Source: a virus
Virus genome (UHGV): UHGV-0371537
DNA length: 64,000 nucleotides
Strand: one strand, 5' to 3'
Shown here: piece after piece, positions 55,960 to 56,676 of the stretch
Position numbering within the stretch: position 1 is the stretch's first letter
Layout of the letters: each line of letters opens with the position of its first letter
Program-made: the position numbers and the translations under genes
Notes under the pieces: generated by a model
What the model was told of the DNA's origin: nothing
Seen by the model: only the letters and a program-made list of their open reading frames with translations
The model's database searches: none

Positions 55960-56676
55960 CTAAATACCTTCAAACGTATTTCTGATAAATTCGATAATAC
56001 GACTTTCATGTTTAAACCATTCAGTCGCACCGTCAAATCCCTTGTAGTTCATACTAAATGACATTTCATGAGCCTTTCTTTCCAGTTCTAACACGAATTG
56101 TCCATCATTTGACTTAAAAACTTCTAGAACATTGAACTCAAATGGAGTTGATCTTCTTAAAGATTTAAATCTATTATTTGGTGAATTGGACACCCCGATT
56201 TTCATACAGCCTTCTTCGCTGGTCAATATGTACAAATAACCGACTTTAAAAGGATTGTATCCGGAAGTTGCGCAGTAGGGGCACCAACTTTTACCATTCA
56301 CCAAATTACAGTATCTTGACTCCCAACGATGTCCTTCTGAACATTCCATAAGGCAAACTGTCACATTATCTTTATACTTTCCACCAATAAATTCTATGAA
56401 TTTACCACCGTTGGTTTCAGCATGGTCGGTTATTCTCTTTTTAGATTCTTGCTGGGTATTTCTCTTGTTGCCATTACATGTTGGGCACCAACTGCCTTTA
56501 TTGATCAAATTTCCATAAGATGCTGAACTCCATTGATGCCCTTCACCACACTGTAATATACATTTTGTCTGATTAGTGATAAATTTATCACCAACGAATC
56601 CCTGGAACAAACCACCTTTAGATAAGGCATATTTGTGAAGATTTTGAATAGCAGTTTCTTCTGTCAGGATTTTCAT
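55960..56676 (-). CDS. T5orf172 / GIY-YIG-like domain protein with two N-terminal zinc ribbons (mobile-element-like insertion)
   Basis: Two repeats of C-x2-C-x-E-G-H-x-W...GKSWCP-x-C; C-terminal GYLYILTSEEGCMKIGVSNSPNNRFKSL resembles GIY-YIG/T5orf172; opposite strand to flanking neck genes. Confidence 0.55.
   Translation of the reverse strand: MKILTEETAIQNLHKYALSKGGLFQGFVGDKFITNQTKCILQCGEGHQWSSASYGNLINKGSWCPTCNGNKRNTQQESKKRITDHAETNGGKFIEFIGGKYKDNVTVCLMECSEGHRWESRYCNLVNGKSWCPYCATSGYNPFKVGYLYILTSEEGCMKIGVSNSPNNRFKSLRRSTPFEFNVLEVFKSNDGQFVLELERKAHEMSFSMNYKGFDGATEWFKHESRIIEFIRNTFEGI

What the first reader, a model, noticed from the sequence alone, without database searches (positions are those of the whole stretch)
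55960..56676. Zinc-ribbon plus GIY-YIG/T5orf172-like gene interrupting the neck gene block on the opposite strand
Two tandem zinc-ribbon repeats are followed by a C-terminal GIY-YIG-like segment, the reverse of the usual homing-endonuclease domain order. The gene is antisense to the flanking late structural genes, suggesting a selfish insertion or a regulator.
Basis: partly seen in the sequence, partly recalled or inferred. Interest (0 to 1): 0.45.

Follow-up and report, generated by a model that had tools for sequence, protein, structure and literature searches.

The report
Free-standing T5orf172 homing endonuclease gene
This is an ordinary selfish gene, a homing endonuclease of an already described class, that has copied itself into the neck-gene region of a Vi1-like (Ackermannviridae) phage, bringing a replacement promoter and start for the essential gene it displaced.

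Summary

It is a selfish insertion.
- GC is 0.36 against about 0.50 in the flanks.
- The site is empty in 14 of 19 unselected related loci and filled by three divergent alleles in the others.
- The insert is 95.5% identical to the Kuttervirus SS9 copy, while the flanking genes are only 72–80% identical to SS9.
- dN/dS of 0.12–0.33 shows the protein is kept functional.

Junction comparison shows the cassette entered gp14 after codon 5. It carries a substitute late promoter, RBS and first five codons. The native promoter is left orphaned and points antisense into the endonuclease gene.

The "reversed" domain order holds only against I-TevI/Seg enzymes. It is the norm for the T5orf172 HEG class (Barth et al. 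2023). Cleavage, homing and the target site were not tested. Verdict: a new member of a known kind, of low to moderate interest.

The parts
55960..56676 (-). Homing-endonuclease gene, 238 aa. It has two CapR/DUF4379-like zinc-finger modules (about aa 5-67 and 74-136) followed by a C-terminal T5orf172/MUG113 (GIY-YIG superfamily) nuclease domain (about aa 139-232).
55975..56748 (.). Inferred laterally acquired cassette of 774 nt at GC 0.358. It holds the endonuclease gene minus its last five codons and stop, an upstream region, and a substitute gp14 promoter, RBS and codons 1-5.
   Evidence: Junction alignments against empty sites. Identity of 95.5% to SS9 inside the cassette, against 72-80% to SS9 and 81-99% to empty-site Ag3 in the flanking genes. 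GC values.
55960..55974 (+). Relic of the native gp14 late-promoter region, CTAAATACC + CTTCAAA. It is now orphaned and points antisense into the endonuclease gene. It also supplies the endonuclease's last five codons and its TAG stop (CTA of the motif).
   Evidence: Identical to the sequence upstream of gp14 in all 16 empty sites. It is the only one of 10 CTAAATAYM motifs in the window with no ORF downstream.
56703..56711 (+). Substitute late-promoter-like motif CTAAATATA for gp14, carried by the cassette. The complementary strand reads TTAAATATA (56716->56708), 31 nt upstream of the endonuclease ATG, a possible divergent promoter.
   Evidence: Motif enrichment of 10 against 0.81 expected, with copies 19-40 nt upstream of long ORFs. 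The same sequence sits at the right end of the 94% and 63% alleles. LIMEstone1 annotates a putative late promoter on both strands at the equivalent place. Promoter activity is inferred.
56734..56748 (+). First five codons of gp14 as supplied by the cassette: ATGGCCACTTCTCGA (MATSR). Empty sites have ATGGCnACTTCnAAA (MATSK).
   Evidence: All 94% and 63% filled alleles carry TCTCGA and all empty sites carry TCnAAA. The 63% allele keeps the native ATGGCCACTTCAAAA as a relic at the left junction.
55718..55930 (-). Resident conserved 70-aa antisense ORF (phrog_4466, function unknown). It is not part of the mobile cassette. It lies downstream of the endonuclease gene on the same strand and is probably co-transcribed with it.
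   Evidence: PHROG hit at 3e-34. It is present in empty-site phages Ag3 and EspM4VN and is 98.6% identical to Ag3.
55696..55711 (.). GC-rich hairpin GGCGGGTTCCCCCGCC between gp13 and the small ORF. It is a likely bidirectional terminator that ends the minus-strand unit (endonuclease gene plus small ORF).
   Evidence: Terminator scan. Terminators are annotated on both strands at the same place in Ag3.

Best explanation
The gene is a free-standing homing endonuclease gene (HEG) of the T5orf172 class. The two N-terminal zinc-finger modules recognise a specific DNA sequence. The C-terminal T5orf172 domain, a GIY-YIG-fold nuclease with conserved Arg169 and Glu219, cuts genomes of co-infecting relatives that lack the gene. 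Recombinational repair from the HEG-bearing genome then copies the cassette into the cut genome.

Shown here:
- The cassette is foreign to this phage backbone and polymorphic among relatives.
- It has moved between the Kuttervirus and Agtrevirus-like lineages.
- It is under purifying selection.
- It sits in the gp14 promoter and 5' region.
- It brings a substitute promoter-like motif, RBS and first five codons for gp14.

Inferred, not shown:
- Nuclease activity and homing itself.
- The target. I consider it most likely, at roughly even odds, that the target is the conserved native sequence CTAAATACCTTCAAAATTGAGGG...ATGGCnACTTCAAAATATTTCAA around the gp14 start, which is altered in every filled allele and so would make carriers immune.
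- Expression from a divergent late promoter.
- Antisense transcription of the HEG from the orphaned native promoter.
For: Domain identity:
- Pfam T5orf172 and MUG113 score above their cut-offs, and PHROG 681 'endonuclease' matches at 2e-59.
- Every invariant or nearly invariant family position is kept: Y149, K159, G161, N164, R169, E199, H203, F214, G216, T218, E219 and W220.

Mobility signatures:
- GC is 0.358 against 0.50-0.52 in the flanks.
- The site is empty in 14 of 19 unselected IMG/VR loci and in Ag3 and EspM4VN. It is filled by alleles 94%, 83% or 63% identical in the others.
- The HEG is 95.5% nt-identical to SS9, while gp13, gp14 and gp15 are 74%, 79.5% and 74% identical and the small ORF has no hit. 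The same flanks are 81-99% identical to empty-site Ag3.
- dN/dS is 0.12-0.33 in both domains.

Junction anatomy.

Precedent:
- The T5orf172 HEG class, with repeated CapR/DUF723/DUF4379 zinc fingers and a preference for sites next to essential genes, is described in PMC10448857.
- The T5orf172 protein Odn cleaves DNA in vitro and is inactivated by E180A (PMC8263062).
- Intronless homing, and promoters embedded in free-standing HEGs, are reviewed in PMC2988022.
Against: - There is no biochemical or genetic test of cleavage or homing for this protein or its Ackermannviridae orthologues.
- The canonical GIY-YIG Pfam model is below its threshold. The second motif is K-I-G rather than Y-I-G.
- Free-standing HEGs in T4 often cut hundreds of bp from their insertion site (PMC2988022), so the target may not be at the junction.
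- dS of 0.15 against SS9 means the transfer is not very recent, and the immediate donor is unknown.
Confidence: 0.85

Rival explanations
1. It is a domesticated DNA-binding regulator. The protein would no longer act as a mobile nuclease. It would bind the late-promoter region of gp14 (or its own promoter) and tune neck-gene or its own expression, as the satellite protein CapR represses the ICP1 capsid operon and as I-TevI autorepresses.
For: The zinc-finger modules are homologous to the CapR DNA-binding domain (PMC8096241). The gene sits directly on a late-promoter-like motif, and a relic of the native promoter remains next to it. Purifying selection fits any retained function.
Against: [quoted passage not shown] Here the nuclease domain is complete, all conserved residues are kept, and it is constrained as strongly as the DNA-binding part. 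A useful regulator would be expected to be fixed. This gene is absent from most relatives, including all the nearest ones, and it is compositionally foreign.
Confidence: 0.07
2. It is a weapon against competitors or parasites rather than a homing element. It would be an Odn-like nuclease that cuts satellites or unrelated co-infecting phages, with its own spread being secondary.
For: Odn, a T5orf172 protein of ICP1, is such an anti-satellite nuclease (PMC8263062). HEG-driven marker exclusion benefits carriers in T-even crosses (PMC2988022).
Against: Odn owes its specificity to a RepA_N domain taken from the satellite. No such domain is present here, only the CapR-type fingers typical of HEGs. 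Three divergent alleles occupying the same site, with target-like sequence changes at the junction, is the pattern expected of homing and not of a defence gene.
Confidence: 0.05
3. It is an inactive remnant: a HEG that invaded and is now decaying, kept only because the cassette carries the promoter and start codon of essential gp14.
For: HEGs commonly degenerate after fixation. The cassette's essential promoter and start would hinder its deletion (the same argument is made for T4 in PMC2988022).
Against: The ORF is intact in every filled locus examined. dN/dS is 0.12-0.33 across alleles down to 63% identity. All family-conserved residues are retained.
Confidence: 0.03

Closest known systems
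T5orf172-class homing endonuclease genes of ICP1, T5-like, Plateaulakevirus and VpaJT-like phages (Barth, Dunham & Seed 2023, PMC10448857)
   Same: The architecture is the same: repeated N-terminal CapR/DUF723/DUF4379 zinc fingers and a C-terminal T5orf172/MUG113 domain. Both are free-standing, lie beside essential structural or packaging genes, vary between close relatives and show lateral exchange.
   Different: Sequence identity to ICP1 members is only about 30%. Ackermannviridae is not among the lineages that paper highlights. The junction anatomy found here, with a substitute promoter, RBS and five codons for the neighbouring essential gene, is not described there as far as I read.
Orthologous genes at the same site in other Ackermannviridae (SS9 HYP88_gp192, Mutine, barely, Se-J, PhaxI, EP75, LIMEstone1 ORF152)
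   Same: They occupy the same gp13 / small ORF / gp14 site in the same orientation with the same architecture, at 94%, 83% or 63% aa identity. They are annotated 'endonuclease', 'putative GIY-YIG endonuclease' or 'meiotically up-regulated family protein'.
   Different: The window's backbone is Agtrevirus-like, and all its nearest sequenced relatives have the empty site. This exact protein is not in the 15-billion-sequence collection. LIMEstone1's original description did not count ORF152 among its 14 homing endonucleases (PMC3296691).
T4 Seg proteins and I-TevI (canonical GIY-YIG homing endonucleases; intronless homing by SegF/SegG; PMC2988022)
   Same: They share the GIY-YIG-fold nuclease. 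They are free-standing genes beside essential genes. Promoters of the displaced neighbour are carried by the HEG cassette. Expected mobility is by double-strand-break repair with exclusion of the competitor's markers.
   Different: The domain order is reversed: nuclease N-terminal with NUMOD/HTH/Zn-finger C-terminal in Seg and I-TevI. PF01541 is not reached. The second motif is K-I-G. T4 HEGs are nearly all co-oriented with their surrounding genes, whereas this one is antisense to the neck genes, although co-oriented with the resident small ORF.
CapR of Vibrio cholerae PLE satellites (PMC8096241) and Odn of ICP1 (PMC8263062)
   Same: CapR shares the zinc-finger DNA-binding module. Odn shares the T5orf172 nuclease domain, with a catalytic Glu corresponding by family alignment to E219.
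   Different: CapR shares homology only with the N-terminal DNA-binding part and acts as a repressor. Odn has a RepA_N DNA-binding domain and targets a satellite origin. Neither is a mobile gene at a polymorphic site.

Membership tests
Pfam T5orf172 (PF10544) / MUG113 (PF13455), GIY-YIG superfamily | Score above the curated gathering threshold of the family model | tested here: met
   T5orf172 scores 30.8 bits against a cut-off of 20. MUG113 scores 32.8 bits against 22.3. Both match over aa 146-230.
Pfam T5orf172 (PF10544) / MUG113 (PF13455), GIY-YIG superfamily | GIY-YIG-like fold of the domain | tested here: met
Pfam T5orf172 (PF10544) / MUG113 (PF13455), GIY-YIG superfamily | Conserved catalytic Arg and Glu (equivalents of the Glu mutated in Odn E180A) | tested here: met
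   R169 and E219 fall in invariant columns of 61- and 151-sequence family alignments. Their equivalence to Odn E180 and the I-TevI catalytic Glu is inferred from motif position (T-E-W near the domain end), not from a direct alignment.
Canonical GIY-YIG catalytic domain (PF01541; I-TevI/Seg type) | Score above the PF01541 gathering threshold, with GIY and YIG motifs | tested here: not met
   PF01541 scores 16.5 bits against a cut-off of 22.6. The motifs read G-Y-L-Y and M-K-I-G, with Lys in place of the second Tyr across the whole family.
Canonical GIY-YIG homing endonucleases (I-TevI/Seg type) | N-terminal nuclease domain followed by a C-terminal DNA-binding region | tested here: not met
   The nuclease domain is C-terminal (aa 139-232) and the zinc fingers are N-terminal.
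T5orf172-class HEGs (PMC10448857) | C-terminal T5orf172 domain plus one or more N-terminal CapR/DUF723/DUF4379 zinc-finger modules | tested here: met
   There are two modules with conserved C/H/C/C ligands. Homologues carry PF21817/PF14311. Of 61 family members, 59 match T5orf172, 37 DUF4379, 35 CapR and 25 DUF723. The window protein itself does not reach the CapR or DUF4379 models.
Homing endonuclease gene (functional definition) | Presence/absence polymorphism at one homologous site among related genomes | tested here: met
   Of 24 loci, 16 are empty and 8 filled. In the unselected IMG/VR sample, 14 are empty and 5 filled. In the empty sites the gap between the small ORF and gp14 is 59-61 nt, with no insert, and the junction-flanking sequence is the same in all of them.
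Homing endonuclease gene (functional definition) | Phylogeny of the element discordant with that of its flanks (lateral spread) | tested here: met
   The insert is 95.5% identical to SS9, while flanking genes are 72-80% identical to SS9 and 81-99% identical to empty-site Ag3.
Homing endonuclease gene (functional definition) | Site-specific cleavage of the empty allele and resistance of the filled allele | not testable with these tools
   Only the sequence correlate was seen: all filled 94% and 63% alleles have CTAAATATATTTAAATC...ACTTCTCGA where the empties have CTAAATACCTTCAAAAT...ACTTCnAAA.
Homing endonuclease gene (functional definition) | Preferential inheritance in mixed infections | not testable with these tools
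   This requires phage crosses.
CapR-type domesticated repressor | DNA-binding module only, with the nuclease domain absent or degenerate | tested here: not met
   The complete T5orf172 domain is present with all conserved residues and a dN/dS of 0.18-0.20.

The most novel reading that the evidence does not exclude
The cassette may be more than a passive free-standing HEG. It is inserted inside essential gp14, after codon 5, and replaces that gene's promoter, RBS and first five codons with its own, which would make it hard to delete. The displaced native late promoter now fires antisense through the endonuclease gene and would give built-in late-phase silencing. The two zinc-finger modules may each read one copy of the 9-mer CTTCAAAAT, which occurs twice, 29 nt apart, in the native target. 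This would be a directly testable recognition code for CapR-type fingers.
Probability: 0.3. Interest if true: 0.45.

Novelty: new member of a known kind. Interest (0 to 1): 0.27.

Why it matters
Mainly this is annotation hygiene. The gene should be labelled a T5orf172-class homing endonuclease, not a neck or structural component and not a canonical GIY-YIG enzyme. It also marks a recombination boundary in Ackermannviridae genomes, which are widely proposed for biocontrol and therapy.

The locus offers a clean natural system for testing homing and target recognition by CapR-type zinc fingers:
- Empty alleles and three divergent filled alleles are available.
- The transferred tract is very short.
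- There is a candidate target with a repeated 9-mer.

It also illustrates how a HEG can make itself hard to lose, by supplying the promoter and start of an essential gene.

Tried and rejected
- A word-index homologue search with the C-terminal 105 aa alone returned nothing. This is a tool limitation, because the exhaustive HMMER search then found 567 representatives.
- Foldseek against the PDB gave no hit at E<=0.001. Only the probability column singled out GIY-YIG proteins.
- No paralogue of the gene exists elsewhere in the 64-kb window.
- My first regex count of CxxC...CxxC modules under-counted the zinc fingers, because the conserved first pair is C-x3-H. The Pfam scan replaced it.
- The sigma-70 promoter scan around the gene was not above the shuffled expectation (5 found against 3.1 +/- 1.8) and was not used.
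- The Hef paper (PMC1275590) is not held. I therefore could not check whether the experimentally studied Hef has this architecture. Only a BFVD entry named 'Hef-like homing endonuclease' matched structurally.
- The exact-sequence look-up found no public copy of this protein.
- The pseudogene reading is disfavoured because of dN/dS. The CapR-like repressor reading is disfavoured because the nuclease domain is intact.
- An earlier notebook tally of '15 empty, 9 filled' was a miscount. One search gives 16 empty and 8 filled.

Full report
**Observation**

The window is part of a Vi1-like (Ackermannviridae) phage genome. Its nearest sequenced relatives are Agtrevirus-like phages at about 87-88% nucleotide identity: vB_CECAV_050, YX22, EspM4VN and Ag3.

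The plus-strand neighbours are:
- a gp13-like head-tail adaptor (54938..55690);
- a gp14-like neck/head-closure protein (56734..57384);
- the gp15 tail-sheath stabiliser, then the small and large terminase subunits.

Between gp13 and the finding lies a second minus-strand ORF of 70 aa (55718..55930, phrog_4466). It is present in every relative examined, including those without the finding. An antisense gene at this place is therefore the resident state and not a peculiarity of the insert.

**Protein anatomy**

Residues 5-67 and 74-136 are homologous repeats, 41% identical over 63 aa. Alignments with homologues show a conserved C-x3-H...C-x2-C ligand set in each: C43/H47/C64/C67 and C112/H116/C132/C135.

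Homologues of this part are numerous and carry up to several copies of the module. Pfam classes them as DUF4379 ('probable treble clef zinc finger') and 'CapR homology domain'. The 63%-identical homologue P0004 matches CapR at 50.2 bits in two stretches. The window protein itself does not reach those two models.

The C-terminal part (aa 146-230) passes the curated cut-offs of MUG113 (32.8 against 22.3 bits) and T5orf172 (30.8 against 20). It does not pass the canonical GIY-YIG model (16.5 against 22.6).

An exhaustive HMMER search with this domain found 567 cluster representatives at E<=0.001. In 142 of the best 150, the domain ends within 30 residues of the C-terminus.

All invariant or nearly invariant family positions are present in the window protein: Y149, K159, G161, N164, R169, E199, H203, F214, G216, T218, E219 and W220.

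**Evidence that it is a mobile insertion**

1. Composition. The cassette has GC 0.358 against 0.518 and 0.497 in the 5 kb on either side.

2. Polymorphism. Among 19 unselected gp14 loci from IMG/VR, the gap between the small ORF and gp14 is 59-61 nt (empty) in 14. In the other 5 it is 806-997 nt and holds a homologue. Adding the four GenBank loci I chose and the window gives 16 empty and 8 filled.

3. Alleles. The occupants fall into three groups, 94%, 83% and 63% identical in protein to the window's.

4. Discordant identity. The window's gene is 95.5% nucleotide-identical to that of Kuttervirus SS9. Against SS9, gp13 is 74% identical, gp14 79.5%, gp15 74%, and the small ORF gives no BLASTN hit. 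The same flanks are 81-99% identical to Ag3, whose site is empty. The gene therefore moved between the Kuttervirus (Cvivirinae) and Agtrevirus-like (Aglimvirinae) lineages independently of its surroundings.

5. Selection. dN/dS is 0.19 against SS9, 0.33 against Se-J and 0.12-0.16 against the 63% alleles, and it is similar in both domains. The protein is being maintained and is not decaying.

**Junction anatomy**

All 16 empty sites read GACTAAATACCTTCAAAATTGAGGGTA, then 5 nt, then ATGGCnACTTCnAAATATTTCAA, where the ATG is the gp14 start (one empty locus, L019, reads AAC for the first three bases).

The motif CTAAATAYM occurs 10 times in the window against 0.81 expected. Nine copies lie 19-40 nt upstream of the ATG of a long ORF on the same strand, which is the behaviour of a late promoter element. 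LIMEstone1's authors annotated the equivalent element as a putative late promoter.

In the 63% allele (LIMEstone1, EP75), the left junction keeps the whole native promoter, RBS and ATGGCCACTTCAAAA, that is gp14 codons 1-5. The 3' end of the endonuclease gene follows directly, and its TGA stop is the reverse complement of native codon 4.

The right end of the 94% and 63% inserts supplies a different copy: TTCAACTAAATATATTTAAATCyTGAGGAA, then 6 nt, then ATGGCyACTTCTCGA. The resident gp14 sequence resumes after that. The element therefore entered gp14 after codon 5 and brought a substitute promoter-like motif, RBS and first five codons (MATSR instead of MATSK).

In the window and the other 94% alleles, the left relic is shorter: CTAAATACCTTCAAA followed by the endonuclease 3' end. 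This is what a deletion between the two native CTTCAAA repeats would leave. The endonuclease reading frame then runs five codons into resident sequence and stops at TAG, the CTA of the promoter motif.

That relic motif (55960-55968) is the only one of the ten with no gene downstream, and it points antisense into the endonuclease gene. In the window, the acquired tract is about 55975..56748.

The window's right junction is slightly mosaic: GAGGAA and TCTCGA are donor-like, while ATGGCC is resident-like.

**Mechanism**

The best explanation is a free-standing homing endonuclease gene. Three steps rest on precedent and not on tests here.

First, T5orf172 domains can be site-directed nucleases. 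ICP1 Odn cuts its target in vitro and in vivo, and this is abolished by E180A (PMC8263062).

Second, the CapR-type zinc finger binds DNA. Cys-to-Ser mutants of CapR lose binding (PMC8096241).

Third, free-standing HEGs spread by double-strand-break repair in mixed infections. This 'intronless homing' is reviewed in PMC2988022.

The target is most simply the conserved native promoter and gp14-start sequence. It is nearly invariant across two subfamilies and is altered on the gp14 side of every filled allele. The very short donor-like tract in the window fits a break close to the insertion point.

Two cautions apply. T4 free-standing enzymes often cut hundreds of bp away (PMC2988022). The immediate donor may also have been an unsampled Agtrevirus-like phage, given dS of 0.15 against SS9.

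On the minus strand the substitute promoter region reads TTAAATATA, 31 nt before the endonuclease ATG. No terminator separates the endonuclease gene from the small ORF, and a GC-rich hairpin follows the small ORF. The likely transcription unit is therefore promoter, endonuclease gene, small ORF, terminator. All of this is inferred.

**Comparison with what is known**

The architecture, genomic habit and variability match the T5orf172 HEG class of Barth, Dunham and Seed (PMC10448857). In their set, 87% of such genes carried CapR, DUF723 or DUF4397/4379 zinc fingers, often repeated, and most lay next to essential genes.

Orthologues at this very site are already in GenBank, labelled 'endonuclease', 'putative GIY-YIG endonuclease' or 'meiotically up-regulated family protein'. 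[quoted passage not shown]

T4 HEG cassettes that carry the promoter of the displaced neighbour are a known theme (PMC2988022). Supplying the first codons as well is a small variation on that theme.

The exact protein is not in the 15-billion-sequence collection. None of the window's closest relatives carries the gene.

**Verdict**

This is a new member of a known kind. Interest is low to moderate. The locus is a tidy natural experiment for homing and for zinc-finger target recognition, but nothing here would surprise a specialist.

Noticed in passing
window 59091..59567 (within TerL ORF 58722..60974, +): The large terminase appears to carry a 159-aa mini-intein inside the Walker A loop...QARQSGK|CVKGDTLV...GGFLSHN|TTVVAAFLL. 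Pfam Terminase_6N only starts matching at residue 283. Intein_splicing gives a weak sub-threshold hit at 19 bits. Ag3's TerL is similarly long at 736 aa, and RC-2014's is annotated 'pretoxin HINT domain protein', so the intein is probably family-wide.
   Followed up: partly
window 55718..55930 (-): A conserved 70-aa antisense ORF (phrog_4466, function unknown) lies between neck genes gp13 and gp14 in all Ackermannviridae loci examined, whether or not the endonuclease gene is present. It is 98.6% identical to Ag3, well above the 81-92% of the other flanking genes measured at this locus.
   Followed up: partly
window, 10 sites: 25355, 25849 (-); 34825, 38711, 41799, 44337, 49447, 55960, 56703, 60978 (+): The motif CTAAATAYM is about 12-fold over-represented (10 against 0.81 expected). 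Nine copies sit 19-40 nt upstream of long, mostly structural ORFs, often followed by CCCATAT...GGGGTAT. It is probably the late promoter element of this phage group.
   Followed up: partly
L001 2846..2930 and the other empty sites (equivalent to window 55960..56760 without the insert): The native gp14 upstream and 5' region contains the 9-mer CTTCAAAAT twice, 29 nt apart: once between the promoter motif and the RBS, and once at gp14 codons 3-6. It may be the pair of half-sites for the two zinc-finger modules. It would also explain the deletion that shortened the left junction in the 94% alleles. This is a post hoc observation and its significance was not tested.
   Followed up: no
L003 5721..6539 (LIMEstone1): In LIMEstone1 a further homing endonuclease gene (F-LimIX) sits between the small and large terminase genes. 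It is absent from the window and from Ag3, EspM4VN and SS9, so this packaging/neck block holds several independent HEG sites.
   Followed up: no
L016 1538..2500 (Salmonella phage Se-J): The 83% allele has about 190 extra nt between the endonuclease gene and gp14, and a different substitute promoter and start (ACTAAATACCTTTAAATGGAGG...ATGGGCACTTCTAAA). Genomes with this allele show a second tblastn match elsewhere, a possible paralogue.
   Followed up: no
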